DNA of 64,000 bases. Source: an uncultured virus (IMG/VR IMGVR_UViG_2519103125_000002). Lineage: Duplodnaviria > Heunggongvirae > Uroviricota > Caudoviricetes. The position numbers and the translations under genes are program-made. Location of the stretch: the IMG/VR virus record IMGVR_UViG_2519103125_000002, positions 1 to 64,000 of that record. One strand, written 5' to 3'. The notes below the pieces were generated by a model that was given only the letters and a program-made list of their open reading frames with translations, was not told where the DNA came from and made no database searches. Shown here in pieces: positions 6,232 through 56,663 of this stretch (positions are counted from its first letter, which is position 1; each line of letters starts with the position of its first letter).

Positions 6232-6632
6232 AAAAATTCCCCCTTAATAGTTTTTTATAACTTGCACCTTAAACGTATCACTTTTATGATTTTTGTAAAT
6301 ATTTTGAATTTGTAGAAATATTTATTTAAATATTGATAATATTGGTAATATACTTTATCAAATGGAAAATAGAGGAATTTATGATGATATGTAATAATGC
6401 ATGTTCATTCAGCAAAAAATCGTGATAAAATCTAAGCACCTGATCTATTTTTTTCAATTAAAATGGAAACCTTACTTCTTATTTACCCAAATGGGAGGCG
6501 CTTTATAGCGTCTTTTTTTTATTTTCAAAAGACCATGCTCATTTAATCCATAAAAACATAAAGTAATTTGAATCCATTAAAATACATGAGTGACTCCTTA
6601 TTTTTCTCCTACTATTTAAAGGAGGAATTATT

Positions 6633-6743
6633 ATGGGCTTTGGTGGTAGTTGCGGTGGCGGCTGTGGCTTTGCAGGAGGATTTGCTTTATTAGTTGTATT
6701 ATTTATTTTATTAATTATTGTTGGAGCTTCTTGCTTCTGCTAA
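6633..6743 (+). CDS. YjcZ/SscA-family small sporulation protein, second copy (36 aa; not in ORF track)
   Basis: MGFGGSCGGGCGFAGGFALLVVLFILLIIVGASCFC; AAGGAGG RBS. Confidence 0.9.
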   Translation: MGFGGSCGGGCGFAGGFALLVVLFILLIIVGASCFC

Positions 6744-6980
6744 AAAACCATTAGAAAAGGCACCCTTATATGGGCGCCTTTTCTTTATGTATATTATTTA
6801 TTATCCAATTCATTGGTTTTATTATAAACACATTTTATTTCTCCAAAATTTCACTATTACTGATAGTCTTTTTAGGTAAATTTAGAGATATTAATTATAT
6901 TATAAAAATATTAGGATAAATAAATTGTTATTATTCTCTTGTAATCTTTATCATCCACCATTTAAAGTTTCTTTAAACTA

Positions 6981-7142
6981 TTACATAACATATGTTTTTT
7001 TGTACCATGCTTTGTTAATGCATTTAACCTTCTTAGATATTGAGGGTTTAGAATTATCCCTTGGTATAGCTATATCATTAGAACATCCTGCGATATTTAA
7101 ACAAAATGTAGCCAATAAAGACAATAATATTAATTTATTCAA
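6981..7142 (-). pseudogene. Truncated lipoprotein gene remnant
   Basis: TTG start, MNKLILLSLLATFCLNIAG|C lipobox, stop after 53 aa. Confidence 0.45.
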
Positions 7143-7296
7143 ATAATCACTTCTAACTCTTTTTTAATTAACATTTTGATATAAAATAAACGTCTCACTA
7201 ATTTTACATTAGATTAAAAGTTGAAAACTATTCTTATAATCATAAAATGTTAAATTTTTGTCCAATGAGATAGTAATACCCCTCCTAAAAACCTGC

Positions 7297-7968
7297 TTAT
7301 TTCCCTAGGTCGGTCTTCTTAAATTCTTCAGCATCATGAAATCCTAAATCGAACGAATACAACGTTTCTAATGTCTCTGAAGCTCCAATATATTTCAAAA
7401 TACTCTCTATATCTTTGTATGATTGAAAATATAAAATTTTTGCTTTTGGTATTTTTCCGTCAGTTTGTAATTTTTTCTTCTTAATACCTAATTCTTCAAA
7501 CATAAAATTATTTAAATGCTCCAAGATATCTTCAGACCCATGAATACGAAAGCGTGGTCTAACATAAATTTTATTTTCAGATCGTTTAACTTTTATCGTG
7601 CCAAGTTCATGCCTCAATAAAACATATTTTTTAATGAATATTTTTTTATTAAACTCACCTTTAGGAAATAACCTAGATTTTCCTCGTATCGGTGTCCAAC
7701 CAAATTCTTTTACCTTTGTAATAAATGGATGGTCACTATTCATAGACATATACCATTCCACATACCCTTTATCTTCACAATATCTTGATCTTGTTTCTTT
7801 CCCAAAGAAATCAGCAAACTTTTTTACTATCACTTGTGACTTATGAGTGAATTGAAAATAATCTCCTGATTCATAACCATTACGCCATACCATACCTAAA
7901 GCCTCTGAAAATACATCTGTTTTAATAAAATCATCTATCCAATTCTTCTCTATAAGATTATTAGTCAT
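7297..7968 (-). CDS. Degenerate two-domain LAGLIDADG-like protein (catalytic acidic residues apparently lost)
   Basis: Helix 1 ALGMVWRNG, GWTPIRGKSRLFP linker, helix 2 FIKKYVLLRHELG, then RPRFRIHGSEDILEHL: LAGLIDADG topology without DADG/DGDG. Confidence 0.55.
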   Translation of the reverse strand: MTNNLIEKNWIDDFIKTDVFSEALGMVWRNGYESGDYFQFTHKSQVIVKKFADFFGKETRSRYCEDKGYVEWYMSMNSDHPFITKVKEFGWTPIRGKSRLFPKGEFNKKIFIKKYVLLRHELGTIKVKRSENKIYVRPRFRIHGSEDILEHLNNFMFEELGIKKKKLQTDGKIPKAKILYFQSYKDIESILKYIGASETLETLYSFDLGFHDAEEFKKTDLGK

Positions 7969-8199
7969 AAAATATTCCCCTTAAATTTTATCCTTCTAAT
8001 CAATTGTAAAATAATACTTTATTTCTATAAACAAGAAATTAACCTTATAAATTTCACGTACTATATCCGATGTGTAAAACCAAATCTTGCAATAAAACCT
8101 ATTCTACCATCCGTCCCCTTATCCTCTAACCAAAAAAGTAGTAAATCCTCTATTTATTCCTCTATCTTAGTGATTCATTCCCCCATGAGTTAAACACTC

Positions 8200-8843
8200 T
8201 CATATTTTTCTGCTTTTCTTCGTAATTAAGCTTGACTGAAGGTCTTGAGGGCTTTTATCATGTGGGAACGATTATGGAATACGGCTGGAAGACAGATTTA
8301 TCCCCTACTTTGAAAGATCACAAAAAAGTAATCGATCAAAATAGATGGATAAGCGTCTTGTTTTCGCCATGCGGTCACTTATAAGGTATCCGTATGTATA
8401 GACCCTGTTCACTCAGCGATTTTCACCGCATACATCCTTTTCCTATGGCTTGTCCTTGTAATATCGTCCCTACACGACAAACTGAATGTACTCCCTAGCA
8501 CCGTAATGCTAACGATAACCACCCGAACCTTTTAGGGATTCGTCCCTAGGCAAGTTCTCGCCCTCCCTCACCAGAAGAACAGGATTCCAATGAGGGGTGC
8601 TGTTTTTGTAGGCGCATACTCTGTACCCCCTGCACGACCAACAGCTAGCCACGCACGTAACACGTTCCTCCTATATGTATAGCAGCACGGAATTACGGCT
8701 TATCAGTTTTTATTTACGTGGTATCAGGCAATTCCACGCGAACAAAAAAACAAAAAGGCATCTCCAATTCCTAAATGGCCTGTAGATCCACAAGACTTCT
8801 AGGTTTAGAGATGCCCGCTATATATCTTTTGACTACAAAAAAT
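8200..8843 (-). ncRNA. Putative large structured non-coding RNA (candidate replication RNA)
   Basis: ORF-free, GC-richer than flanks, about ten stem-loops; extended -10 TGcTAGAAT (TAGAAT at 8847-8852); terminator-like hairpin near 5' end. Confidence 0.5.
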
Positions 8844-8898
8844 ACAATTCTAGCATTTACTAGTTGAATTTTAGTCAAACAATAGATAAAATGGGTAT

Positions 8899-9075
8899 AT
8901 CAAAGAAGCCTCGTGAAAAGGCATAGTTGTTTAAGGTTAGTGGTGGTACACTTCTTAAACGTTAACACTGTGGTTGAATACAGCTAATTTCTAGTCAAGT
9001 GGTGGTACACTTGCTAGAGCAAGTCATTCCCGCTAAAGGTTGGTAGCCGTTAGCATATGGGAGTGGCTTTTTGTT
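8899..9075 (+). ncRNA. Putative multi-hairpin sRNA with repeated (G)UGGUA loops
   Basis: TTGAAT(8864)-17-TAAAAT(8887) promoter; AGTGGTGGTACACT hairpin twice; ends in long stem plus T-tract. Confidence 0.65.
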
Positions 9076-9231
9076 TTGTGTTCATATTCAATTGTTTTTA
9101 ATTATCTCGTTCAATCTTCATGATCTTCGTTTATGTAAAATATCAAATTATGTTTTGTTTTGTAGAATGTTGCTTGTTGTGTACTACGTTACAACAAGCT
9201 TTTTTGTTTGTAAACAGCGAAATGACAACTC

Positions 9232-9650
9232 AAAACTACGCATAAGTGTAAATGTATACCTACGAAAAAGTAGAAATGTATACTTTTCTACCATACTTTT
9301 AAATTTGGTATACTATTTCTAACTTACGCATAAGTAGAAATGTATACTTATAACCTCATATTTATAATTGATTCCTTCTTAAAAATTGAAATTAACCCTT
9401 TATTAACGGTATATGGTGAACTAATCTCTAAACTACGCATAGGTGTAAAAGTATACTTTTACACCTTGGAAATTACCCATTCTCTAAACTACGTATGAGT
9501 AGAAAAGTAGAAAAGTATACTAAAAAATCTTACGCTTAAGTATACTTTTCTACTCTTTCGATAAATTTGTTGAAAAAATATAAACTTTTCTTTGGTATAC
9601 TGTTGCGAATATTGTATGTAGATGTTACATTTTACTCAAAGGTATACTTA
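9232..9650. repeat. Centromere (parS)-like or iteron repeat cluster upstream of parA
   Basis: Multiple copies of (C/T)TACGCATAAGTRNAAA(T/A)GTATACTT, including the palindrome GGTGTAAAAGTATACTTTTACACC. Confidence 0.75.
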
Positions 9651-9678
9651 TTCGGAGTTTTATGGAGGAATGTCGAAA

Positions 9679-10509
9679 ATGACTAGACAAGCAACTACAT
9701 ACGTAATCGGTAACTTTAAAGGCGGAGTTGGAAAAACTAAAACAGCTACAATGTTAGCTTATGAAGCAGCTACTGTATTTAATGAGAAGTGTCTGTTAGT
9801 GGATATGGATCCTCAGGGTAATGCTACCAGAGTCCTTGCTAAAACAGGTGACATTGAACAAATAGACAAGTCTATTACAGATGCATTTTTAAATCAAAAT
9901 TTAGAGAATGAGATTATCCCAGTTATCGAGAATTTGGATATCGTTCCATCTAATACTTCATTTAGAAAACTTTCAAAAATCCTCTTTGATATGTTCCCAG
10001 AGGATGAGCTTGCACAAATTACATATTTAAAGAAGTTACTAGAACCATTAAAAGATAAATATGATCGTATCTACATTGATGTACCACCAACAATCAGTGA
10101 CTACTCAGATAATGCTATGATAGCAGCTGATTATTGTATCATCGTTTTACAGACACAAGAGTTATCTCTAGAAGGTGCTCAAACATACATCGCTTATATG
10201 CAATTCTTAGCAGAAACATATGATGCAGACCTACAAGTTTTAGGTATTATCCCAATGATGTTACACCAGGGAAAACGAGTGGATAATAAAGTATTACAAC
10301 AAGCTCAGGAAATGTATGGCGGAAACGTTCTAGATACAATCGTGAGATATCAAGAACGCCTAAAAGTGTATGATATCGAAGGGATTCATAAAAACGTTAA
10401 CGTTAGCGGTAACATTGATATGTGGGATGAAAAAGCACATCAGCTATTCATTGATGTTCTTAGCGAACTTAATGAACATGAAAACTATTTTGCTACTATT
10501 AACGCTTAA
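9679..10509 (+). CDS. parA: ParA/Soj-family partition ATPase (type Ib)
   Basis: Deviant Walker A KGGVGKT, DMDPQGNAT, IDVPP; GGAGG RBS favours start at 9679. Confidence 0.95.
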   Translation: MTRQATTYVIGNFKGGVGKTKTATMLAYEAATVFNEKCLLVDMDPQGNATRVLAKTGDIEQIDKSITDAFLNQNLENEIIPVIENLDIVPSNTSFRKLSKILFDMFPEDELAQITYLKKLLEPLKDKYDRIYIDVPPTISDYSDNAMIAADYCIIVLQTQELSLEGAQTYIAYMQFLAETYDADLQVLGIIPMMLHQGKRVDNKVLQQAQEMYGGNVLDTIVRYQERLKVYDIEGIHKNVNVSGNIDMWDEKAHQLFIDVLSELNEHENYFATINA

Positions 10510-10523
10510 GGAGGAAGTTCAGA

Positions 10524-10925
10524 ATGTCTAAAACACCATTTCAGCCTATAGTCACAAAACCTGGAAACACTTTAAATGACAAAGGTGTACAGATAAAAGG
10601 AACTAACGATTTTGGTCGTAATAGTGAGCCTGTAAAAAAACAAGTTATTAAGCCTATTATCAATAAAGGGAAAGTAACAGCTCCTGAGAAGCCTGATCAA
10701 CGTTTAGTTCCATCTAAAACGGCTAAAATTTCACCTGCTGTTTTATTAAAGCTAAATACACTTAAGCCATTTATAAAAGAACAAGAAAGCATGGATAAAG
10801 CATCAATTAATAGTATTATTGATATGCTTCTTGAAAGTTATGTAAATACTAAACTAACAACAAGACAATCTGAAGGTTATAAAGGTATGTACAAGCACCT
10901 TTATGAAATGCTGGAAAAGAAATAA
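10524..10925 (+). CDS. Putative small partition adaptor (centromere-binding protein)
   Basis: Directly after parA; disordered N-terminus and RHH-like C-terminus (TAKISPAVLLKLNTLK..SIIDMLLESY). Confidence 0.6.
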   Translation: MSKTPFQPIVTKPGNTLNDKGVQIKGTNDFGRNSEPVKKQVIKPIINKGKVTAPEKPDQRLVPSKTAKISPAVLLKLNTLKPFIKEQESMDKASINSIIDMLLESYVNTKLTTRQSEGYKGMYKHLYEMLEKK

Positions 10926-10956
10926 CACGTGAAAAGTTTAAATAGGAGTGGTACCT

Positions 10957-11241
10957 GTGGAAAATAAAAATAATTCATATGTAGTAACAGTTACGCCTAT
11001 TACCGACAACTTAGATTTAAGCACAGACAAGAAATTACAGGCGCCCGAGAAAAAGAAGTTTAAAAACCAACAAGGAAGTATTAAGGTTTCTAATGAATCG
11101 AAAGTAGAACTTGAAGCACTAATGAAAATTACCAACAAGAAATTCGCTCATGAAATCATCAATCTACTTATAGATAATTATGTAGAAAAAGAATTAACTG
11201 CAGAGCAGAAAATGAAATTCAAATTATTGACTGGAATATAA
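10957..11241 (+). CDS. Second putative small partition adaptor (paralogous fold)
   Basis: SIKVSNESKVELEALMK..EIINLLIDNYV resembles preceding protein; terminator at 11241-11282. Confidence 0.6.
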   Translation: MENKNNSYVVTVTPITDNLDLSTDKKLQAPEKKKFKNQQGSIKVSNESKVELEALMKITNKKFAHEIINLLIDNYVEKELTAEQKMKFKLLTGI

Positions 11242-11474
11242 AAAGAAGTATCCCTGAATCTAATTAGGGATACTTCTTTTTTATGAGGTACCTTCAGTAT
11301 TTCAGAAAAAAACAACGCTAAGAGTATACATAAATTTATACAATTTTTCGAGTAATCCAGTAACAAACGAGAACCCGAAAACCGCACCATGATAGGAATG
11401 TATAAAAAATTGTATAGATCCATAGAACAAAAAAGGCGGATTCCCTTTGAAAGTAAGGGGCTGCCTTTTTCCCT

Positions 11475-11503
11475 GCTACCGATAATGAGACGTTATGTTA
11501 ACC
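11475..11503 (+). other. dif-like XerC/D (CodV/RipX) site, 7-bp spacer
   Basis: GCTACCGATAA-TGAGACG-TTATGTTAACC compared with B. subtilis dif ACTTCCTAGAA-TATATA-TTATGTAAACT. Confidence 0.6.
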
Positions 11504-14550: not shown

Positions 14551-15147
14551 TTAATGGAAATCAGTAACCGTAAATATGTTACAATCCAATCCCTCACAAA
14601 GCTTTTGGAGTTGTTTTCTGCGATATTCCGTCGTGGTGTACCAAATAAACTTAGGTGTCTTTTCAAACACTTTGCATTCAATTAATTTACGATACTTCTG
14701 CATCTTGATACGATTCGCGCTCATCTTTTGCTCATGATCCACCTCTACAATGTGATAACGGCCATTATCCGTGAATAGTGCATCTGCAATTATGGAAACG
14801 ATACCCTTCACATTCATCTTAACTTCCTGTTTCCACGTTTTCGGGCATTCGTAAGCGATGTAGATGTCATTCCTCATAATGTAATGGCGAAATTGATTCG
14901 AACGCTTGAGTATCTTCTTACTTCCGATACGTTCACGCCCTTCCTTGTTAAGATAATAAACTTTCTCTCCGTCCCTAAAGCTAGATACATATTCTTCAAT
15001 TCCTTTCATAACACGCGATGCATTCCTGTCACCACCAAGATCATGAAGTACCTGGATTTGCTTCCTACTTAAAAATCCCAACTTCTTCAAGCTCAAGAGT
15101 ATGGACTCGGTTCTCGCTTCCTTTAGTGCTAGTTTTTGCATCTTCAT
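14551..15147 (-). CDS. Replication-relaxation (Replic_Relax) family protein
   Basis: N-terminal wHTH, HYIMRND, ADALF..IVEVD..KM motif; follows FtsK-like gene as in Bacillus phages. Confidence 0.75.
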   Translation of the reverse strand: MKMQKLALKEARTESILLSLKKLGFLSRKQIQVLHDLGGDRNASRVMKGIEEYVSSFRDGEKVYYLNKEGRERIGSKKILKRSNQFRHYIMRNDIYIAYECPKTWKQEVKMNVKGIVSIIADALFTDNGRYHIVEVDHEQKMSANRIKMQKYRKLIECKVFEKTPKFIWYTTTEYRRKQLQKLCEGLDCNIFTVTDFH

Positions 15148-16363
15148 GCTCCTTCCTCGCTCTAATGTTGATGTGTGGCTTTATGATGTTATCAATCTGC
15201 TTATTATCGATATAAACCGTCTGAAGGACCTTTTTCTCGTTTGTTTGGTATATAGCCCTTCCCTTTATATTTGGAAGACCCTCTGCGCCGCCCTCATCTA
15301 ATACGGCACGGCTCCCTGCCTCTGTTTGTAATCTAAAGCAAACACGAGCACCAATATTTTGACGCAGTTGTGACGGCATAGCGCTATTCGTCGGATATTG
15401 GGTTGCATATATTAAACGGAATCCAGCCGCCCTGCCACGACGACCAATATCAACAATAATGTCCTGGCACTCCTGATATGGCGCTATATCGGCTGCTTCA
15501 TCTACGATTACAAAATACCGTACTGGATCCCCGGCTTCTTTTATATCTTCGTATCCTTTTTCTAGTAAGTATTCGTTTCTAGCATTCAGTTTATCTTGCA
15601 ATTCCCTTAGAGTCTCAATGGCTTCCTCTGGGTTCTTCGCAATTGATTCGACTTGATTTAGGAATCTGTATCGGTTGAAAGAGAGACCACCCTTCAAATC
15701 TATAAGGAATAGCTTTATATTTTCTGATTGGTTGCGCACTAGCGAAGTAATAATAAGCTTTAATACATTCGATTTCCCCATATCCGTCATGCCGGCAGAG
15801 ATCATATGTGATAGCTGGTCAAAGTCGTGTTTTATCAATCCATCTCTTGTATAACCAATAGGGACTTCCCATCCCCTACATTGCTTCATCATCTCTTCTT
15901 CAAATTTCACGAAAACAGGAATTCCTTTCTCATAAACTCGTATTTTAAGTAACCCATCGTAAGACAGCTCAATTTCCTTTCTAACGAGTCTTTTCTTGCT
16001 TATGATGTTTTGTATTTGTTTTAAGATATCTTTTCGCAGTCGAAGAGATTTGAAGTCTTGTAGTTTAAAATCATAAACTTTGCTCTTGTGGTTTAATCCA
16101 TCTTCTAAATGTTGTATCTTTTGTTTAAAATCGGAGAAGCTAAGACCAAGCGGAATCCTATACGCATATTCAACTCCCCACTCATTCCTCGTCTTACGGA
16201 GTAGCTGTATAGTTCTGGTCTCTTTTCCTTCTTTTACTTTTAAACCGCAATTAGCACAAATCCTTTGAATCTTAGAGGCATCATTCGTTGCTCCTTTTTG
16301 ATGCATTTTTGATAGAAAGACTACACCACCAACTGCAGCTGAACTTACTAACTCAAATATCAC
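15065..16363 (-). CDS. FtsK/SpoIIIE-domain ATPase
   Basis: HMISAGMTDMGKS Walker A, LIDLKGG, VIVDEAA, GRAAG..ATQYP. Confidence 0.9.
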   Translation of the reverse strand: MIFELVSSAAVGGVVFLSKMHQKGATNDASKIQRICANCGLKVKEGKETRTIQLLRKTRNEWGVEYAYRIPLGLSFSDFKQKIQHLEDGLNHKSKVYDFKLQDFKSLRLRKDILKQIQNIISKKRLVRKEIELSYDGLLKIRVYEKGIPVFVKFEEEMMKQCRGWEVPIGYTRDGLIKHDFDQLSHMISAGMTDMGKSNVLKLIITSLVRNQSENIKLFLIDLKGGLSFNRYRFLNQVESIAKNPEEAIETLRELQDKLNARNEYLLEKGYEDIKEAGDPVRYFVIVDEAADIAPYQECQDIIVDIGRRGRAAGFRLIYATQYPTNSAMPSQLRQNIGARVCFRLQTEAGSRAVLDEGGAEGLPNIKGRAIYQTNEKKVLQTVYIDNKQIDNIIKPHINIRARKEHEDAKTSTKGSENRVHTLELEEVGIFK

Positions 16364-50761: not shown

Positions 50762-51910
50762 CTATATAATCCCTAGAGATTTCTTAGGTAATTGAGCATA
50801 AAAAATATTCCCTAATCGCTCAAACATATCTAGTGATTTCAATAACAGTTCTTTGTCATTTTTCGCTAGGCCTAAATAGTAAATTTGAAATGCGCTCAGT
50901 TCCCCGTTCTCTTCTTTCAACTTCATTAAAATTTTAATTGCATGTTCATTATTACCCTTTTGTATTTCTAAATATGCTTGTTCAGCAGCATGTAATGGTT
51001 TAATATTTTCTAAATCAACTTTATGATGTATTTTTAGAAACTCAATAGTATTAGCTATCATTGTTCTTCTCATTTCCATTTGATTACTCGACTCTTTCTC
51101 TAAAATGCTCAATGCTTTTTTCAGATAAAATATCGATTTGTCAAAGGATTCATCACATAGCATAAACGATTCTCCCAATACACCATATACTGTTGCTTCT
51201 ACAACAGGAAAACGATTATTGATAGGTATACTTTGTATCACTTCTTCGCATATTTCTCTTAGTTTTTCTAGTTCGTATGCGGTTAAATGACCATGAATTG
51301 CACATTCCTTTATCTTATAAAAAAACGATTCTTTTAGATAAGGATCTTTAATATCATTTAGTTTCTCCATTAAAAAATCGGATTTGTTAACCATTAACTT
51401 AAAGTTACCTTGATCGTAAGCTGATAGCATTTCTATTTCTTCGGATAAAATCTCTAATTCTTTACTTTTTAATTTGAGGTATTTCTTTCTCTTATTTAAT
51501 TCCAAAAGTAATTTTTCGCCTTTTATGTGTCCTTTATATCTTTTATAAATCAGTTCATACAAGCTTGCCCATTCGCGATTTTCTTTATTTGCTGAAGTCA
51601 TTTCTTGGTCTACTAGTCGTTTTAAAAGTTCCAACTCTCCATGAGCCATTAAATAATTCATCGCAATTTTTTTATTAAGATGTCTTTTAGTATTAGTAAA
51701 GTATTTAGCGCAAAGATCTCGACGTAACTCTACATCATTAGGATAAGCGATTTTTAAAAGTTCTCCGTACTTGTCGAATCTAATTCCATCTTTCTCCTTA
51801 AAAAATTTAGAAACCGTCACGTTGCTTAAACTGATTTGTTTTGAAATATTTCTATCGCTTATTCCTTTAGCGTACAAATCATTTTGCAACTTCACTATTG
51901 AACTTTGCAC
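50762..51910 (-). CDS. aimR: AimR-family lysis-lysogeny peptide receptor (HTH plus TPR, RRNPP)
   Basis: 382 aa; N-terminal HTH, NREWASLYEL motif, C-terminal FERLGNIFYAQLPK; followed by peptide gene. Confidence 0.92.
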   Translation of the reverse strand: MQSSIVKLQNDLYAKGISDRNISKQISLSNVTVSKFFKEKDGIRFDKYGELLKIAYPNDVELRRDLCAKYFTNTKRHLNKKIAMNYLMAHGELELLKRLVDQEMTSANKENREWASLYELIYKRYKGHIKGEKLLLELNKRKKYLKLKSKELEILSEEIEMLSAYDQGNFKLMVNKSDFLMEKLNDIKDPYLKESFFYKIKECAIHGHLTAYELEKLREICEEVIQSIPINNRFPVVEATVYGVLGESFMLCDESFDKSIFYLKKALSILEKESSNQMEMRRTMIANTIEFLKIHHKVDLENIKPLHAAEQAYLEIQKGNNEHAIKILMKLKEENGELSAFQIYYLGLAKNDKELLLKSLDMFERLGNIFYAQLPKKSLGII

Positions 51911-52345: not shown

Positions 52346-53842
52346 TTGGGAGTAAAAATAGCAATATTAATTGGTGTAAGCGAATATAAAAATATTAGTA
52401 ATTTAGATGCATGCTTATGTGATATTGAGGTAATGCATGAACTACTTAAGCAAACAAATGAATATAGTGAAATTTTATTTATTAACAAGAATTTGAATAG
52501 TAATCAAGTAAAAGACCAAGTTGTAGAGTTTGTAAAAAAATATGAAAATCCTGAGGAAGAAATCGATCAGGTATTTTTCTATTTTACTGGACATGGTAAG
52601 ACAAACTCATCTGATGTTCATTTCTTGTTATCAGATTATGAATCCACAAAGTTAAAGGCTACTTCTTTACAAAATTCAGAGGTAGATAGTTATTTACGAT
52701 TGTTAAGTCCTAAATTAGCTGTAAAGGTCATTGACGCATGCTATTCAGGTGCTACATATATTAAAGACGATGAACAACTTGTAGAAAAAACTTTAAGGGA
52801 ATCTGCAAGGAAAAAAGAATTGAGAGACTGTTATTTTATGTTTTCGTCTCAAAATAATGAACCTTCTCTTGCACAAAGGTTAAGTTATTTTACAGAAAGT
52901 TTTGTCCAAGCAGTTCTTGATCAAGATGCTGGAACTACAATTAGATTTAAGAATATTACAGACAGAATATCTGATACATTTAGTTCAATATATAAAGACG
53001 AACAAACTCCTAAGTTTGTTTTTCAAGCTAATCTTACAGAGGATTTTTGTTCAGTAACAACTGAGTTAAAAGAACAAGTTGAAAAAAAATTAGAGGATAT
53101 CGGGGCAGTTACTTCAGAAGCCTTAGTAGAAGAAAAAGAAGAATTTTCCTTAATCGAAATGGTTAAAAAAGAAGCAGAAGATTACTGTACAGATTTTTCG
53201 GAAATCATAAATGCTGTTGATATAATAGGGGATAAGTTTGAAAAGTTTACACTACCAAATCACATAGCTGACCTCTATGAGTTATCAGTTAATAAAGGTT
53301 GTATAAATAGAGGGATTCCTTTAAGTAATATTGATAAACATAAAGCTGTACTTAATTTACTTAAAGAAAAACAAAATGATTATTTTGTTAATGTAATATA
53401 TGAAGAGGAAGAAGAATCTACAAATCCTTATAGCCTTGCTTCACTATATCCCTCATTTGGAAGGAAAAAAGAAAAGAAACCTATAGATTTAGAAGTGCTA
53501 TCTGGGGATATTCCCTTTGATTATATCTCTATTGAAATTAAGGCGAAGTATCCTAGTCTTAAATCTTATAAATTTTCGTTAATAATTTTCCTGTCACGTA
53601 TGAATTTCCTGATTATGAATTCTGTTGCGCCATATAAGGAAATTGCATGGAATCAATTTGCAACAGAAGAAGAAGAAATGAAATGGGTATACAGGGAAAT
53701 TAAAATTAAAGACACTCCACATTTGACAATCACTACTGAAAAAATCTTAAGTCAGTGTACGAATATCATACTTGATGAACTAGGAACAAAATTTGAAATG
53801 CAAGGTAAAGACAAAAATGGTAATTTGATTAAAACACCATAA
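52346..53842 (+). CDS. Caspase-family (peptidase C14) protein with unknown C-terminal domain
   Basis: AILIGVSEY, FYFTGHG and IDACYSG His/Cys dyad, EQTP. Confidence 0.9.
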   Translation: MGVKIAILIGVSEYKNISNLDACLCDIEVMHELLKQTNEYSEILFINKNLNSNQVKDQVVEFVKKYENPEEEIDQVFFYFTGHGKTNSSDVHFLLSDYESTKLKATSLQNSEVDSYLRLLSPKLAVKVIDACYSGATYIKDDEQLVEKTLRESARKKELRDCYFMFSSQNNEPSLAQRLSYFTESFVQAVLDQDAGTTIRFKNITDRISDTFSSIYKDEQTPKFVFQANLTEDFCSVTTELKEQVEKKLEDIGAVTSEALVEEKEEFSLIEMVKKEAEDYCTDFSEIINAVDIIGDKFEKFTLPNHIADLYELSVNKGCINRGIPLSNIDKHKAVLNLLKEKQNDYFVNVIYEEEEESTNPYSLASLYPSFGRKKEKKPIDLEVLSGDIPFDYISIEIKAKYPSLKSYKFSLIIFLSRMNFLIMNSVAPYKEIAWNQFATEEEEMKWVYREIKIKDTPHLTITTEKILSQCTNIILDELGTKFEMQGKDKNGNLIKTP

Positions 53843-54101: not shown

Positions 54102-56663
54102 TCATATAGATTGACACTGTATCATTCTATCTTCCCACCAATCAGGGTAAACAATAATTTCTTCTATATCCTTTTCATATAATGTTGTAATAAAATCGCT
54201 AAAATCCTTTAAAATTGAGAATGAGTATACCGATACCTCTTCAGAAGTTACTCCTTTCCAAAGGATTTTTACAAATTCTTCATTCTTTAATACTTCTCTT
54301 ACTTTTTCGGCATGTATATAAGAAGCATCAACGTTTAAGTGGTGATTGCATAAATACATATATGTAAGGAAATTCTCTCGGATTACAAGGTCTTCTTTTG
54401 CCATTTCTGCAAGATTGTCTAGTTTATTGTATATATCAGATTTATGGAATCGTGAATCTCTGAATAAATAATACTTTTCGAGAGAAAAATCTTTGTCACT
54501 CCAAATATTAAGTCCGTTTTTCAAACTAAACTTATCTAGTAAATTTCGAATATAAAATGGCTCAATAATTTTAAGTAAATTTATTTTATAGTCATTAAAC
54601 TGAAGGGACATTTTCTCATCAGGATACCATGGGTCTATAATTTCTAATAACTTTTCATTGTAATTATCCGCAAGTATTTCAGTTAACTCCTTAATTATTT
54701 TCTTTTCTCTATTTCTGTTATCAATATATATATATCTATAAAATTCCTCGTATCCATTCATATTAGTATTTATCCAAATCTTTAATTGTTTATAAAGTAA
54801 ATTAAAGATTTGAACTTGATATTCTGGTATGACTAGAGGTATTAATTCTTGAATATGATTATCTAAATCTACTAGTTCTTGCTGATAGTTCTTCGCTGTT
54901 ACATGATATTTAGTTACATGGATTTTACCAAAAAGCTCGTCCCGATGATTAAAGATATGTTCAATATATTGTGATTTTAAATTTCCATTTATTAAATCGT
55001 CAAATTTTGTGTTATCTAAACGCAATCTTTCATAGTTTGATTTATATTCCTTCCATGTTAATACACTTGAACTCTCAATAATTCTAAAGTACAGATCAAA
55101 ATTCTTATCCAATTTATTTATCTGTATTTGTAATCCCATAATAATATTTTTAGCTCTTTTCATATCTTTGGATTCCACGGGATATTTATTTAAAATTTCT
55201 TTTGCGTCATCCTCTGTAATTAGACTAGCCTTTTTCTTAGAAATATAGGAAGGTGAAAACATTCCCCTAACCTCTGAATCCCTTAATATTCCTTTATATA
55301 CATTTGGAAATTCTAGATTAAGTATTTGGACTAAGTATATAAAATTTAAGTTTATTTCATCGCTTTCAAATCGTTGAAGTATAGTTGCAAGTAAGTTCAT
55401 GTTTTGAAGATACCTTTTTAGGGTTCTTGGATTATTTGGTAAATAACTTTTAATATTATTAATAACCTTGGTATCAATTTGATTTTTGGGTTTATTCAAT
55501 TCTTTTTGTAATAAATCCATTCTTCCTTCCACTGATGGTTCATCAATTGTTATATGGTAATTTATAATTTTTTCTAAGAATAAGTTCCCACTTGTTAAAT
55601 TCATTTCTTTAGTAATTATTTTACTAACTGTCTCATCATCTATTGCGAGAACGTAAGAAATTTTATCAATATTAATAATTTCTTTCACTGTTTTTAATAT
55701 AGTTAAAATTCTCTTAGCATCATCCAAACGGTCTAAATCATCAATAAATACAATAATTTTTGCGTTTTGGGGTAAATTTATATTTAAGTAATTATTAATG
55801 GCTGCCTTAATTTCATTCTCTATAGGTGTTCCGGCATTTTTTATAAGTTCATCAATTAGCTTTCCAATTGGCAATTTAGAGGTTGAATGTTGAAAAATTC
55901 TCAATGAAAATGCTTTGATTGACCTAAATATAGGAAAATTAAGGACCCCCTTATCGTGCATAATTAATTCTTGTTCTATAGCCTCTCGAAAGCCAATCCA
56001 TAACTCCTTGTCGCTGTGGTATGTCCATGGATTAAACCAGCACACAATAAAATTCTCTTTCTTTTGTAATGATTCCTTAACTAAGTTCATTAGAGACGTC
56101 TTACCAGATCCCCACCTACCGTAAACACCTATCTTTAGGCTTTCATCTTGATGCTTTTCTAGCATTTCAGCTATCCTTTCTGCTGTATTAATTCTTCCTA
56201 ATGCATCCTCTGATGATGAATATATAGACTCGTCTGAATTATTATTGGTAGATTTAAGTTCCTTTATCTTGCATTTCATTCCTCTTTTATATAAATAATA
56301 ACTACTTACTAATAAAGATAAAAAAATGAGTTGAAGTGTAATAGTGTCATTTTTCCATATGAAAAGAAGACAGCAAATTACGATGCATACAAAACTAAGA
56401 ATATATAAAACTTGATATCTCTTCATTGCTTTAACGTAAAAAAAGATTTTAACTAATGAAAAGAATATTATTCCTAAAGTAATGAGCAATACAGTATTGA
56501 ATAAATGCAGATCAGATGCTTTAGCAACGAATTTTTCTATCATTACATTTATTTTATATGGTATTTTATGAGGTATTTCATAAATTCCTGAACCAATCAA
56601 TAGCACAGCTAATATTTTAAATACAGAATCAACATAAAACCTTTTTTTATTCACTTTTTTCAC
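54102..56663 (-). CDS. KAP-family P-loop NTPase with N-terminal TM helices
   Basis: DALGR, IGVYGRWGSGKTS, FNPW, FIDDLDRL, FLEKII, NPRTLKR. Confidence 0.92.
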   Translation of the reverse strand: MKKVNKKRFYVDSVFKILAVLLIGSGIYEIPHKIPYKINVMIEKFVAKASDLHLFNTVLLITLGIIFFSLVKIFFYVKAMKRYQVLYILSFVCIVICCLLFIWKNDTITLQLIFLSLLVSSYYLYKRGMKCKIKELKSTNNNSDESIYSSSEDALGRINTAERIAEMLEKHQDESLKIGVYGRWGSGKTSLMNLVKESLQKKENFIVCWFNPWTYHSDKELWIGFREAIEQELIMHDKGVLNFPIFRSIKAFSLRIFQHSTSKLPIGKLIDELIKNAGTPIENEIKAAINNYLNINLPQNAKIIVFIDDLDRLDDAKRILTILKTVKEIINIDKISYVLAIDDETVSKIITKEMNLTSGNLFLEKIINYHITIDEPSVEGRMDLLQKELNKPKNQIDTKVINNIKSYLPNNPRTLKRYLQNMNLLATILQRFESDEINLNFIYLVQILNLEFPNVYKGILRDSEVRGMFSPSYISKKKASLITEDDAKEILNKYPVESKDMKRAKNIIMGLQIQINKLDKNFDLYFRIIESSSVLTWKEYKSNYERLRLDNTKFDDLINGNLKSQYIEHIFNHRDELFGKIHVTKYHVTAKNYQQELVDLDNHIQELIPLVIPEYQVQIFNLLYKQLKIWINTNMNGYEEFYRYIYIDNRNREKKIIKELTEILADNYNEKLLEIIDPWYPDEKMSLQFNDYKINLLKIIEPFYIRNLLDKFSLKNGLNIWSDKDFSLEKYYLFRDSRFHKSDIYNKLDNLAEMAKEDLVIRENFLTYMYLCNHHLNVDASYIHAEKVREVLKNEEFVKILWKGVTSEEVSVYSFSILKDFSDFITTLYEKDIEEIIVYPDWWEDRMIQCQSI

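What the first reader, a model, noticed from the sequence alone, without database searches (positions are those of the whole stretch)
7297..9075. Candidate Rep-less, RNA-based plasmid replicon: ~650-nt structured RNA, divergent regulatory sRNA and degenerate LAGLIDADG protein next to parA
Seen: the element has parA, parS-like repeats, a resolvase and dif-like sites, but no integrase and no plasmid Rep in 64 kb. Where rep would normally sit there is an ORF-free, GC-enriched stretch (8200-8843). On the minus strand it has an extended -10 (TGcTAGAAT), a 5' terminator-like hairpin (GGCATCTC...GAGATGCC-TTTT) and a chain of stems (CGTGG/CCACG, GCTGTT/AACAGC, CCCTCA/TGAGGG, GGCGAG/CTTGCC, TAGGGA/TCCCTA, TAGCAT/GTGCTA, TTATCC..GGATAA) with G-runs. 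A LAGLIDADG-like ORF lacking catalytic residues follows on the same strand. Known: ColE1 uses a ~550-nt primer RNA under antisense control, B. subtilis pLS20 replicates without a Rep protein, and the ARRPOF RNA motif lies in a plasmid replication region. Inference: this is a primer RNA or RNP replicon for prophage maintenance.
Basis: partly seen in the sequence, partly recalled or inferred. Interest (0 to 1): 0.85.

Follow-up and report, generated by a model that had tools for sequence, protein, structure and literature searches.

The report
Large folded RNA, likely plasmid origin
Beside the partition genes of this Bacillus phage-plasmid lies a strongly expressed, intricately folded RNA of about 600 nt with its own small antisense RNA; tiny plasmids with no recognisable replication-protein gene share it, so it is probably what lets these elements copy themselves.

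Summary
Window 8232-8840 (minus strand) encodes a structured RNA. On 35 homologs, 109 pairs in 16 helices, two of them pseudoknots, are 97.9% paired. 57 pairs show compensatory change, against 25.6±2.8 in shuffles. G·U asymmetry fixes the strand. Stranded RNA-seq reads pile up on it. No Rfam family matches.

A ~178-nt sRNA (8900-9078, + strand) has a promoter conserved in 14 of 14 relatives. In 9 of 14 relatives the long RNA starts upstream of the sRNA gene, so the sRNA is a cis-antisense RNA, as in ColE1 RNA I/RNA II.

The locus occurs in 108 PLSDB plasmids. These include pALH1, pLVP1401, pE33L54 and pBWB404, which have no known minireplicon, and 6.8-14 kb plasmids with no recognisable Rep. 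Only this locus and a resolvase are shared with the four small plasmids compared.

Most likely (about 0.6) it is a Rep-independent, antisense-controlled RNA replicon. Its control module resembles that of a pHT1030-like plasmid, and its layout matches the RNA-based origins upstream of parA in mycobacteriophages.

The LAGLIDADG-fold ORF is real, but it is variable cargo (3 of 57 loci) and not a partner. The window also has a phage DnaD/DnaC replication module, so "no Rep" is overstated.

The parts
8232..8651 (-). Core of the long structured RNA (about 420 nt). It is closed by UGGCU (8651-8647) pairing with AGUCA (8237-8233). It contains helices 3-16, two pseudoknots (8584-8578 with 8410-8404; 8517-8513 with 8464-8460) and a GAAA-tetraloop hairpin (8429-8416).
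   Evidence: RNAalifold: 99 pairs, 46 with compensatory change. Counting: 109 pairs, 97.9% paired, 57 compensatory pairs against 25.6±2.8 in shuffles, slid controls 38-46% paired. Strand test: 97.9% against 81.8% paired, 621 G·U against 12 A·C cells. MFE z-score -4.38. Coordinates.
8350..8521 (-). The most abundant RNA-seq fragment: the pseudoknotted central domain of the core (helices 8-14).
   Evidence: Run X23: depth 1819 (first mate on +) against 53 (first mate on -) at 8337-8503, and 192 at 8504-8670. Adapter read-through marks molecule ends at 8491-8521. CM R1 built on 8397-8533.
8652..8699 (-). Variable insertion hairpin (GCCGUAAU.../...GUUACG), present in the large phage-plasmid type and absent from most small plasmids.
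   Evidence: Alignments; helix CCGTAAT/GTTACGG covaries in my scan.
8716..8738 (-). Conserved hairpin CGUGG...CCACG with loop AAUUGCCUGAUA.
   Evidence: Helix 2, 96.2% paired, 1 compensatory pair.
8740..8816 (-). Terminator-like long hairpin (8816-8757) and U-rich tract (8757-8740). It may be an attenuator. The tract is also the 3' strand of a helix with the 5' end of the leader.
   Evidence: Helix 1: 91.7% paired, 4 compensatory pairs. Closing helix with 9083-9067: 13 pairs, 92.2% paired, 3 compensatory pairs. Support is only modest: 27 of 500 and 33 of 500 shuffles reach the observed values. Seen in the MFE folds of the three leaders printed.
8847..8855 (-). Extended -10 (TGCTAGAAT) of a proximal promoter for the long RNA. 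It is present in the window and pALH1 type only.
   Evidence: My scan, (window and L001 only). Not called by the scan tool. An RNA-seq contig of run X8 ends at 8825.
8864..8892 (+). Promoter of the small RNA (TTGAAT-17-TAAAAT).
   Evidence: A promoter at the same alignment column in 14 of 14 diverse homologs.
8900..9078 (+). Small RNA of about 178 nt: stem-loops including two with the same GUGGUA loop, then a long terminator hairpin (9022-9069) and a U run.
   Evidence: The sRNA-sense fold is more stable than the opposite sense in 13 of 14 homologs. Terminator: 17 pairs, 98.3% paired in + sense against 86.1% in the other sense, 71 G·U against 5 A·C cells. RNA-seq contig 8904-9097 in run X8.
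9067..9106 (-). Probable distal start of the long RNA: a -10-like GATAAT (9106-9101) and the conserved 5' segment GAACACAAAACAAAAAG (9083-9067). Transcripts from here run antisense through the sRNA gene.
   Evidence: A homologous position carries TTGATT-17/18-TAAAAT in 9 of 14 relatives. In the window there is only a weak -10-like hexamer, with no -35 aligned. X23 reads over 8838-9171 have the same orientation as the core reads (depth 5-7), and there are none on that strand beyond 9172.
8146..8169 (-). Conserved downstream repeats (TAAGATAGAGGA-type; ACCACUA repeats in the small plasmids). Role unknown; possibly the site where DNA synthesis starts or a protein-binding site.
   Evidence: Alignment of downstream flanks of 13 homologs.
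7297..7968 (-). LAGLIDADG-fold ORF (223 aa, phrog_6640). Variable cargo, not part of the RNA system.
   Evidence: Present downstream of the RNA in 3 of 57 loci.

Best explanation
The locus (about 8140-9110) is a replication and copy-control module that needs no dedicated initiator protein. It would let the prophage, and the small plasmids that share it, replicate as plasmids.

A long non-coding RNA is transcribed leftward, away from parA. In most relatives it starts beyond the sRNA gene. Its first 120-200 nt are therefore complementary to a constitutively promoted small RNA, which would act as the copy-number sensor as RNA I does in ColE1.

The leader ends in a long hairpin plus U tract that also pairs with the RNA's own 5' end. 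Binding of the sRNA would change this fold. That would either terminate the transcript or misfold what follows.

Transcripts that escape form a 420-nt pseudoknotted core. This core, directly or by recruiting host enzymes (RNase H, Pol I, primosome), would provide the primer or opening for leading-strand synthesis just downstream, around 8230-8140.

Shown here: the RNA structure, its strand, its expression, the conserved sRNA promoter and terminator, the antisense layout in relatives, and the distribution.

Inferred: replication function, the attenuation or refolding switch, primer formation, and the start site of DNA synthesis.
For: 1. Real structured RNA. 109 pairs are 97.9% paired, with 57 compensatory pairs against 25.6±2.8 in shuffles (0 of 500), and both pseudoknots 100% paired. 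621 G·U against 12 A·C cells fix the minus strand.

2. Expressed. In run X23, 2583 reads were laid, 97% in one orientation, with depth up to 1819 on the core and none over parA or the ORF. Run X8 gave separate contigs at 8049-8825 (depth 113) and 8904-9097 (depth 9.2), with the promoter gap uncovered.

3. Copy-control design. The sRNA promoter is present in 14 of 14 homologs. The long-RNA promoter lies beyond the sRNA terminator in 9 of 14. The sRNA terminator is selected in the + sense.

4. The control region diverges faster than the core. Core identity exceeds sRNA-gene identity in 74 of 78 pairs (73.8% against 56.3%). Among plasmids co-resident in one B. wiedmannii strain, the sRNA genes are 48-54% identical and the cores 73-86%. 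That is what an incompatibility determinant would show.

5. Distribution.
- 108 plasmid records carry it.
- 30 of 105 species genomes of the family carry it.
- It is in pALH1, pLVP1401, pE33L54 and pBWB404, all listed 'no reported minireplicon' (PMC4219350 table).
- It is in 6.8-14 kb plasmids. 10 of the 11 records with this core whose typing I saw have no MOB-suite replicon.
- Between the window's genome and four small plasmids, only this locus and a serine recombinase are shared.
- No Rep family was found in the small plasmids' proteins.

6. Its control module is homologous to that of BTB_15p (52 nt at 92%, 185 nt at 69%). BTB_15p is a 15-kb B. thuringiensis plasmid that I recall as like pHT1030, whose roughly 1-kb minimal replicon was reported to have no ORF. 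[quoted passage not shown] The BTB_15p-type locus also sits in a 7.6-kb plasmid with no Rep annotated.

7. Experimental precedent for the layout. In parABS mycobacteriophages, a roughly 600-bp region immediately upstream of parA, expressing a non-coding RNA in the reverse direction, suffices for autonomous replication (PMC7157519, abstract and passages).

8. No DnaA box (one mismatch or fewer) in 14 of 14 loci.
Against: - No replication assay exists for this locus.
- The window has a phage DnaD-like initiator with a DnaC-like loader and a Replic_Relax protein that could maintain the plasmid state.
- BTB_15p, pCI-14 and one more plasmid have a 346-422-aa protein just upstream of the locus. The BTB_15p one has a weak, sub-threshold RepA_N/HTH_36 match (E 9e-4, 19.5 bits against a cut-off of 30).
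- Two small plasmids have a small HTH_36/DnaD_N-like protein (E about 1e-4). Unrecognised initiators in the small plasmids cannot be excluded.
- In the window itself the distal promoter is only a weak -10-like hexamer. The proximal extended -10 would give a transcript that does not overlap the sRNA.
- RNA-seq depth is higher downstream of the terminator-like hairpin than upstream, the opposite of simple attenuation.
- The closing helix has only modest statistical support.
- A core with two pseudoknots is more elaborate than any known primer RNA.
- Full-length copies also lie on large contigs in 2 genomes, at 1.45 Mb and 5.23 Mb.
- That BTB_15p is pHT1030 is recalled, not shown.
Confidence: 0.6

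Rival explanations
1. The long RNA is an antisense-regulated leader or regulatory RNA of a protein-dependent replicon, as in pT181, pIP501 and RepA_N plasmids. Replication is started by a protein: the phage DnaD/DnaC module or Replic_Relax in the phage-plasmids, and unrecognised small proteins in the small plasmids. The RNA only sets the expression or timing of neighbouring genes.
For: An antisense RNA followed by a terminator-like hairpin is the classical countertranscript attenuator layout. There is a weak RepA_N/HTH_36 match in the protein next to the locus in BTB_15p, with relatives in pCI-14 and L010. HTH_36/DnaD_N-like proteins lie downstream in L004 and L005. A gene on the same strand follows the RNA in 46 of 57 loci. 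The window has its own replication proteins.
Against: The gene after the RNA belongs to at least 33 unrelated families in 46 loci, including nucleases and a LAGLIDADG-fold protein. No protein family other than a resolvase is shared by the window's genome and the four small plasmids compared. A 420-nt core conserved at 74% mean identity with two pseudoknots is not needed for a leader. The RepA_N match is below the Pfam cut-off, and that gene lies upstream of the RNA, not downstream. The BTB-type locus occurs without that gene in a 7.6-kb plasmid.
Confidence: 0.15
2. It is a plasmid- and phage-borne structured non-coding RNA with a role other than replication, for example a stable RNA that binds a host or phage factor in the manner of OLE, ROOL or GOLLD, or a competition or exclusion determinant. 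The sRNA would only tune its level, and it travels with plasmids as cargo.
For: The tertiary architecture is elaborate: two pseudoknots, a GNRA loop and many invariant unpaired positions. A discrete fragment of about 170 nt is very abundant. The RNA borders a hot spot of variable cargo. Copies occur on large contigs, and decayed relics lie in chromosomes.
Against: It sits at the place where replicons sit, next to par or the resolvase, in otherwise unrelated plasmids of 6.8-90 kb. It is the only non-resolvase sequence the window's genome shares with the four small plasmids compared. Those small plasmids would then have no identifiable replicon at all. The fast-diverging antisense module fits copy control.
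Confidence: 0.15
3. The conserved stretch acts as DNA, for example as an origin with protein-binding repeats, and the apparent RNA structure is incidental.
For: There are conserved repeats downstream and inverted repeats in the DNA.
Against: 621 G·U against 12 A·C cells: the pairing works on one strand only. 57 pairs are compensatory. Expression is strong and strand-specific. No DnaA boxes were found.
Confidence: 0.03
4. It is an RNP of the structured RNA with the LAGLIDADG-fold protein, either a maturase-like partner or a group I intron with its homing endonuclease.
For: The ORF has a double LAGLIDADG fold, and maturases of that fold bind structured RNA. It lies 264 nt downstream on the same strand.
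Against: The ORF follows the RNA in 3 of 57 loci. pALH1 has an MmcB-family gene there instead. No intron family matched even at E 10. The RNA has its own promoters and no flanking exons.
Confidence: 0.02

Closest known systems
ColE1-type replicons (RNA II primer with RNA I antisense control)
   Same: A long untranslated RNA is transcribed toward the presumed start of DNA synthesis. A short, constitutively promoted, multi-stem-loop RNA is encoded on the opposite strand over the 5' part of the long RNA in most relatives. No initiator protein is evident. The RNA is G-rich.
   Different: No sequence or Rfam similarity. The host is Gram-positive. The core is a closed 420-nt domain with two pseudoknots and a GNRA loop, far more elaborate than RNA II. 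In the window the overlap of the two RNAs is uncertain. RNase H and Pol I dependence are untested.
RNA-based (non-RepA) prophage origins of parABS cluster A mycobacteriophages (Wetzel et al. 2020, PMC7157519; abstract and passages read)
   Same: An extrachromosomal prophage without an integrase. [quoted passage not shown] No repA.
   Different: The host phylum is Actinobacteria. Similarity of sequence or structure was not tested. There, autonomous replication was shown by experiment; here it is inferred. An antisense sRNA and pseudoknotted fold are documented here; I did not see them described in the passages I read.
pHT1030 replicon (ori1030 of the pHT304/pHT315 and pBS0E vectors; Lereclus & Arantes 1992; title seen in a reference list, content recalled)
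   Same: A B. thuringiensis plasmid replicon reported as a novel type whose minimal region has no ORF (recalled). The 15-kb plasmid BTB_15p, which I take to be pHT1030-like, shares the sRNA gene, both promoters, the terminator-like hairpin and the CGUGG hairpin with the window.
   Different: Downstream of the shared control module the BTB_15p core is not alignable, and the CM of the window's core does not match it. That BTB_15p is pHT1030 could not be checked here.
oripLS20 (class E theta replicon of B. subtilis pLS20; PMC8557374 and PMC4490491, passages read)
   Same: A roughly 1.1-kb replication module without a typical replication gene, next to the partition module of a Bacillus plasmid.
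   Different: oripLS20 is described as having DnaA-binding sites. None (one mismatch or fewer) occurs in 14 of 14 loci here. No pLS20-family record appeared among the plasmid hits listed (60 of 108 listed).
Countertranscript-driven attenuation of rep mRNA (pT181, pIP501/pAMβ1; from established knowledge, named from memory)
   Same: A cis-antisense RNA against a leader that is followed by a hairpin plus U tract.
   Different: There, the regulated product is a Rep protein. Here no conserved ORF follows.
Large structured bacterial ncRNAs often carried by phages or plasmids (ROOL, GOLLD, OLE, HEARO; Rfam)
   Same: Size class, GC-rich island in an AT-rich genome, complex conserved fold, carriage on mobile elements.
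   Different: No match to any of them. This RNA has a dedicated antisense RNA and a fixed place beside partition or resolution genes.

Membership tests
ColE1-type RNA II/RNA I replicon | Long untranslated RNA transcribed across the origin region | tested here: met
   Covariation and strand; RNA-seq. That it reaches an origin is inferred.
ColE1-type RNA II/RNA I replicon | Short RNA encoded antisense to the 5' part of the long RNA | tested here: inconclusive
   The layout holds in 9 of 14 relatives by promoter position. In the window there is only a weak -10-like hexamer at 9106-9101, plus low same-strand read depth over 8838-9171.
ColE1-type RNA II/RNA I replicon | Homology to RNA I/RNA II | tested here: not met
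   No Rfam match at gathering score across the whole window, nor at E up to 10 in 6900-9700.
ColE1-type RNA II/RNA I replicon | Replication without a plasmid initiator; RNase H and Pol I dependent priming | not testable with these tools
   Needs replication assays.
ori1030 (pHT1030) replicon family | Homology of the control region (sRNA, promoters, leader hairpins) to the pHT1030-like plasmid BTB_15p | tested here: met
   52 nt at 92% and 185 nt at 69%; promoters at the same alignment columns.
ori1030 (pHT1030) replicon family | Homology of the downstream core | tested here: not met
   Not alignable; CM R1 finds nothing in L007 at E up to 1.
ori1030 (pHT1030) replicon family | BTB_15p region is the experimentally defined ori1030 | not testable with these tools
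   No pHT1030 or vector sequence is held. The one supplement tried was unreadable.
RNA-based non-RepA prophage origin (mycobacteriophage type) | Non-coding RNA region of about 600 bp directly upstream of parA, transcribed away from it | tested here: met
   Long RNA from 9094 or 8840 down to about 8230 on the minus strand; parA at 9622-10509 on the plus strand. Description in PMC7157519.
RNA-based non-RepA prophage origin (mycobacteriophage type) | Region sufficient for autonomous replication | not testable with these tools
   Experiment needed.
RNA-based non-RepA prophage origin (mycobacteriophage type) | Sequence or structure homology to the mycobacteriophage RNAs | not tested
   No mycobacteriophage sequence was fetched.
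oripLS20 | DnaA-binding sites in the module | tested here: not met
   0 boxes with one mismatch or fewer in 14 of 14 loci.
Known Rfam RNA families (group I/II introns, ROOL, GOLLD, OLE, HEARO, Bacillus-plasmid, ARRPOF and others) | Covariance-model match | tested here: not met
   0 matches at gathering score in 64 kb. 11 chance-level matches at E up to 10 in 2.8 kb, none reaching its cut-off.
LAGLIDADG homing endonuclease/maturase fold (ORF 7297-7968) | Two αββαββα repeats | tested here: met
   Model pLDDT 89.1, pTM 0.83. 131 PDB chains at E up to 0.001; top hits I-Tsp061I, I-AniI, I-SmaMI, bI3 maturase, WhiA.
LAGLIDADG homing endonuclease/maturase fold (ORF 7297-7968) | Pfam family match and catalytic acidic residues at the ends of the two motif helices | tested here: inconclusive
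   The only Pfam hit is sub-threshold: LAGLIDADG_WhiA, E 0.051. By eye the helices end in W-R-x-G and R-H-(D/E)-x-G in the family consensus. I made no residue-level superposition.

The most novel reading that the evidence does not exclude
The 420-nt pseudoknotted core is itself the initiator: an 'RNA Rep'. It would fold into a defined tertiary structure that opens or invades the duplex, or docks host RNase H, Pol I or primosome proteins, or even processes its own 3' end. Different cores (this one and the unrelated BTB_15p/ori1030-type core) would be plugged behind one shared antisense control module. That would define a new class of large functional RNAs and a modular family of protein-free replicons in Bacillota. 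It would also explain how the widely used ori1030 vector origin works.
Probability: 0.25. Interest if true: 0.9.

Novelty: new variant of a known kind. Interest (0 to 1): 0.72.

Why it matters
If the reading is right, this locus is the missing replicon of a large family of B. cereus-group phage-plasmids and cryptic small plasmids. That family includes pALH1, pLVP1401, pE33L54 and pBWB404, all listed without a known minireplicon.

It would also extend RNA-based, initiator-free replication from ColE1 and mycobacteriophages to Bacillota.

The RNA is absent from Rfam 15, is well supported by covariation, and is much more elaborate than a simple primer. It therefore offers a direct handle on how an RNA can start DNA replication.

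Its shared control module with a pHT1030-like plasmid could explain a vector origin that has been used for 30 years without a known mechanism.

In practice it gives replicon typing a marker for plasmids that protein-based schemes leave untyped. It also suggests compatible, tunable origins for Bacillus genetics.

Tried and rejected
- Rfam: nothing at gathering score in the whole window, and only chance-level hits at E up to 10 in 6900-9700. The chromosomal relic loci also gave nothing.
- Group I intron with maturase: rejected. No model match, and the ORF is variable.
- DnaA-dependent origin of the pLS20 kind: no DnaA boxes.
- Whole-genome cumulative GC skew: dominated by gene orientation (minimum at 56.7 kb, maximum at 4.2 kb), so it says nothing about an origin at 8.5 kb.
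The viral scan gave mostly close relatives.
- Run X1 gave one flat contig over 6939-9221, which may be DNA or read-through and is uninformative. Run X21 had no reads on the locus.
Variants break it, and RNAalifold prefers other partners.
- A trans pairing between the sRNA loops (GUGGUA) and UACCAC in the CGUGG hairpin was seen by eye only and not tested.
- A simple attenuation model (more reads upstream of the hairpin than downstream) does not fit run X23.
- Literature: ten full-text searches found no description of this RNA or of the replicon of these plasmids. The 1992 pHT1030 paper is not in the library. The supplement that might have held ori1030 primers could not be read.
- Scan notebook look-ups by place and by sequence found nothing.
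Full report
**What the window is.**
- The window is 64,000 of the 65,743 bases of a viral record. The record has a 95-nt terminal direct repeat, so the assembly is a circle.
- Pfam and PHROGs show a siphovirus of the B. cereus group. It has small and large terminase, portal, capsid, tail, holin and amidase genes at 17.6-36.4 kb.
- Other genes found: an AimR arbitrium receptor, a Sak annealing protein, RecU, a serine resolvase, ParA with two small downstream proteins, an FtsK/Replic_Relax pair, and a DnaD-like replisome organizer with a DnaC-like loader.
- No integrase family was hit among the 62 ORFs scanned, including the three ORFs of the 1.7 kb outside the window.
- It is therefore a phage-plasmid of the kind catalogued by Piligrimova et al. 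(PMC8026635, passages). They list protein functions only and do not mention this non-coding region.

**The observation.**
- GC rises to 0.52 at 8500-8699 against 0.22-0.30 around it. Only two short ORFs of 47 and 50 aa lie there.
- The named extended -10, the 5' hairpin and most of the named stems are present.
- No Rfam 15 family matches at gathering score anywhere in the window. With relaxed filters in 6900-9700 there are only 11 sub-threshold hits, such as microRNA models on the palindromic repeats near 9500.

**Relatives.**
- The 2-kb region matches 105 PLSDB plasmids, all Bacillus. Only 13 cover the ORF as well.
- The 751-nt non-coding part matches 108 plasmids, 78 of them over at least 80% of its length. 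One each is from Peribacillus, Pseudalkalibacillus and Planococcus.
- One phage record (C30-2) has the core.
- By BLAST, 30 of 105 species-representative genomes of the family have a match. A covariance model of the central domain finds it in 3 of 151 genomes sampled across the order.
- Carriers include pALH1, pLVP1401, pE33L54 and pBWB404. Zheng et al. 2013 list all four as 'NA: no reported minireplicon' (PMC4219350, table).
- The core also occurs at 67-88% identity in plasmids of 6.8-14 kb: NZ_CP137771, NZ_CP009593, NZ_CP035983, NZ_CP128148, NZ_CP072773, pBwiPL1-4, pBwiPL1-5, pBAslCI14 and a Planococcus plasmid. In each it falls in a large unannotated gap.
- Of the 11 records with this core whose PLSDB typing I saw, 10 have no MOB-suite replicon. 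pALH1 has rep_cluster_1396.

**It is an RNA, on the minus strand.**
- A MAFFT alignment of 35 non-redundant homologs (A1) gives an RNAalifold consensus of 99 pairs, 46 with compensatory changes.
- I added two pseudoknots and the 5' hairpin, found in my own covariation scan. The counted structure then has 109 pairs in 16 helices:
  - 97.9% of 3774 cells are paired.
  - 57 pairs have changes on both sides, against 25.6±2.8 in shuffles (0 of 500 reach it).
  - The covariation score is 0.292 against 0.169.
  - Sliding the partners by 1-3 columns drops pairing to 38-46% and leaves 7-18 such pairs.
- Both pseudoknots are 100% paired. The loop of the CCCUCA hairpin pairs with GAACAGG 170 nt downstream, with G-C exchanged for A-U in 14 sequences. 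UAUCG pairs with CGAUA, with all five pairs changed in 6 sequences (probably one event).
- Read on the other strand, only 81.8% of cells would pair. There are 621 G·U cells against 12 A·C.
- The core alone folds with z = -4.38.
- The structure was partly derived from these sequences, so the slid controls flatter it somewhat. The compensatory counts do not depend on that.

**It is expressed.**
- Four RNA runs were laid on 6500-11500.
- Run X23 (raw, paired; a strain whose reads are 95-99% identical to the window) gave 2583 reads:
  - Depth with the first mate on + was 32 at 8170-8336, 1819 at 8337-8503, 192 at 8504-8670, 14 at 8671-8837 and 5-7 at 8838-9171.
  - With the first mate on -, depth was 53 or less throughout.
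  - No reads fell over 7001-8002, which covers the ORF. Over 9339-11500 there were none apart from depth 2.6 in one bin at 10675-10841. Those parts may simply differ in that strain.
  - With the usual library chemistry this orientation means minus-strand RNA.
  - Adapter read-through places many molecule ends at 8491-8521. A species of about 170 nt covering the pseudoknotted centre therefore accumulates.
- Run X8 (assembled contigs) gave one contig over 8049-8825 at depth 113 and a separate one over 8904-9097 at depth 9.2. Nothing covered the promoter region between them.
- Run X1 gave a flat contig over 6939-9221, which proves nothing. Run X21 had no reads on the locus.
- Contigs cannot show ends or strand. 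The fine boundaries are therefore tentative.

**The small RNA and the control region.**
- On the + strand, a TTGAAT-17-TAAAAT promoter (8864-8892) has a counterpart at the same alignment column in 14 of 14 diverse homologs.
- The transcript folds into stem-loops ending in a long terminator hairpin with a U run. The fold is more stable in this sense than in the opposite one in 13 of 14 homologs.
- The terminator's 17 pairs are 98.3% paired in this sense against 86.1% in the other, with 71 G·U and 5 A·C cells.
- In 9 of 14 homologs a good promoter in the long-RNA sense (TTGATT-17/18-TAAAAT) lies just beyond the sRNA terminator. One further homolog has one at another column. There, the long RNA must run antisense through the whole sRNA gene.
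- The window and pALH1 have only a GATAAT hexamer at that place, plus the extended -10 at 8855-8847.
- Three things suggest the distal start also works in the window:
  - Low read depth on the same strand over 8838-9171, stopping before 9172.
  - The right end of the X8 contig at 9097.
  - A possible helix between the conserved 5' segment (9083-9067) and the U-rich tract after the hairpin (8757-8740).
- That helix appears in the minimum-energy folds of the three leaders printed. On 32 sequences it is 92.2% paired with three compensatory pairs. The low-complexity A/U runs make the controls weak: 27 of 500 and 33 of 500 shuffles reach the observed values, and the slid registers are 48-75% paired. 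I count it as suggestive.
- The sRNA gene diverges much faster than the core: mean identity 56.3% against 73.8%, with the core higher in 74 of 78 pairs.
- For two plasmids co-resident in one B. wiedmannii strain, the sRNA genes are 53.6% identical and the cores 86.0%. Against the window, which stands in for a third resident plasmid that is 96.5% identical to it, the figures are 47.5-50.3% and 73.0-82.0%.
- This is the pattern expected of an antisense copy-control and incompatibility determinant.

**What travels with the RNA.**
- An all-against-all protein comparison covered the window's genome and four whole small plasmids. Only the serine recombinase, and spurious frames inside the RNA region, are shared with the window.
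- The four small plasmids share an HTH protein followed by a coiled-coil protein of about 210 aa, and a divergent 107-199-aa gene. None has a Pfam or NCBIfam replication family.
- Two have a 152-164-aa protein with weak HTH_36/DnaD_N matches (E about 1e-4).
- The gene that follows the RNA on the same strand is extremely variable. Of 57 loci with enough flank, 46 have an ORF within 1.3 kb. These fall into 33 similarity clusters, and the LAGLIDADG-like one has 3 members including the window (the loci were not de-duplicated).
- The ORF itself is real. It has 32 homologs, all in the B. cereus group, a confident model and a clear double LAGLIDADG fold.
- It is nevertheless cargo in a hot spot, not a partner of the RNA.

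**Link to known Rep-less replicons.**
- The 15-kb plasmid BTB_15p of B. thuringiensis Bt407 shares with the window the sRNA gene (52 nt at 92%), both promoters, the terminator-like hairpin and the CGUGG hairpin. After that it is unrelated, and the core model does not match it. Its own downstream part folds with z = -2.47.
- I recall that pHT1030 is a 15-kb B. thuringiensis plasmid whose roughly 1-kb minimal replicon has no ORF, and that it is the source of ori1030 in the pHT304/315 and pBS0E vectors.
- Here I could only see the paper's title and the use of ori1030 in vectors.
- Two cautions apply. The equivalence of BTB_15p and pHT1030 is unverified. And BTB_15p has, just upstream of the locus, a 346-aa protein with a sub-threshold RepA_N/HTH_36 match, with relatives in pCI-14 and one other plasmid.
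- The BTB_15p-type locus also occurs in about ten plasmids, one of them 7.6 kb with no such gene and no replicon type.
In the text I read, 105 of 110 parABS cluster A mycobacteriophages lack repA. They express a non-coding RNA immediately upstream of parA in the reverse direction, and the roughly 600-bp region suffices for autonomous replication even with stop codons in overlapping ORFs.
- That is the same layout as here, shown by experiment in another phylum.
- pLS20's 1.1-kb origin also lacks a replication gene, but it is described as having DnaA sites (PMC8557374). No DnaA box occurs in 14 of 14 loci here.

**Verdict.**
- The most likely function is a Rep-independent, antisense-controlled RNA replicon (0.6).
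- The rivals are an antisense-regulated leader of a protein-dependent replicon (0.15) and a structured RNA with a non-replicative role (0.15). A DNA-level element (0.03) and the LAGLIDADG RNP (0.02) are unlikely.
- Nothing here shows replication directly, and the window has phage replication proteins of its own.
- The RNA family is absent from Rfam 15, and my ten literature searches found no description of it.
- As a kind of system it is a new variant of RNA-based origins. The elaborate core leaves room for something more novel.

Noticed in passing
window 7969-8230 and the equivalent place in 57 related loci: The DNA directly downstream of the RNA core is a hot spot of variable genes. There are 33 unrelated families in 46 loci, including an MmcB-family nuclease, a LAGLIDADG-fold protein and proteins of 368-611 aa. 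This may be a cargo or defence island fixed beside the replicon.
   Followed up: partly
L279-L282 (chromosomal contigs of four B. cereus-group genomes, near 1.13-1.18 Mb); L279 1530-1668: A decayed copy of about 110-140 nt of the RNA's central domain sits right after the terminator of a yajQ-like gene at the same chromosomal place in several species (76-81% identity; CM 45 bits). It looks like a relic of an old integration.
   Followed up: partly
window 6590-6746: Run X21, which has no reads on the rest of the element, shows a sharply bounded block of reads here, on both orientations and with many molecules beginning and ending at 6590 and 6746. Runs X1 and X8 also have short high-depth contigs there. 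The reads may come from a conserved sequence elsewhere in those strains. Unexplained.
   Followed up: no
window 9230-9570: Several copies of a roughly 25-nt repeat (…ACTACGCATAAGT…GTATAC…), partly palindromic, lie between a + strand terminator (9172-9199) and parA. This is probably the partition site. It drew spurious microRNA-model hits.
   Followed up: no
window 10524-10925 and 10948-11241: Two consecutive small proteins after ParA both match phrog_9202, and the second weakly matches DUF5388. This may be a duplicated partition adaptor.
   Followed up: no
window 50762-51910; 52346-53842; 54102-56663: An AimR-type arbitrium receptor lies next to the cI/Cro-like HTH pair. Beside it are a caspase-like peptidase C14 protein and a KAP-family P-loop NTPase, which are candidate defence genes.
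   Followed up: no
window 14551-16363: An FtsK/SpoIIIE ATPase overlaps a Replic_Relax protein (phrog_2190, annotated 'replication initiation protein'). The pair could bear on plasmid-state replication or DNA transfer.
   Followed up: no
L003-L006, L012, L277 (small plasmids): The small plasmids share a conserved trio: a divergent 107-199-aa gene, a 92-aa HTH protein and a coiled-coil protein of about 210 aa. This may be a protein-only partition system, or an unrecognised replication factor.
   Followed up: partly
G058:C1 near 1.446 Mb (L273); G035:C1 near 5.226 Mb (L275): Full-length copies of the RNA locus (80-83% identity) lie on megabase-sized contigs. They could be integrated elements or assembly joins.
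   Followed up: no
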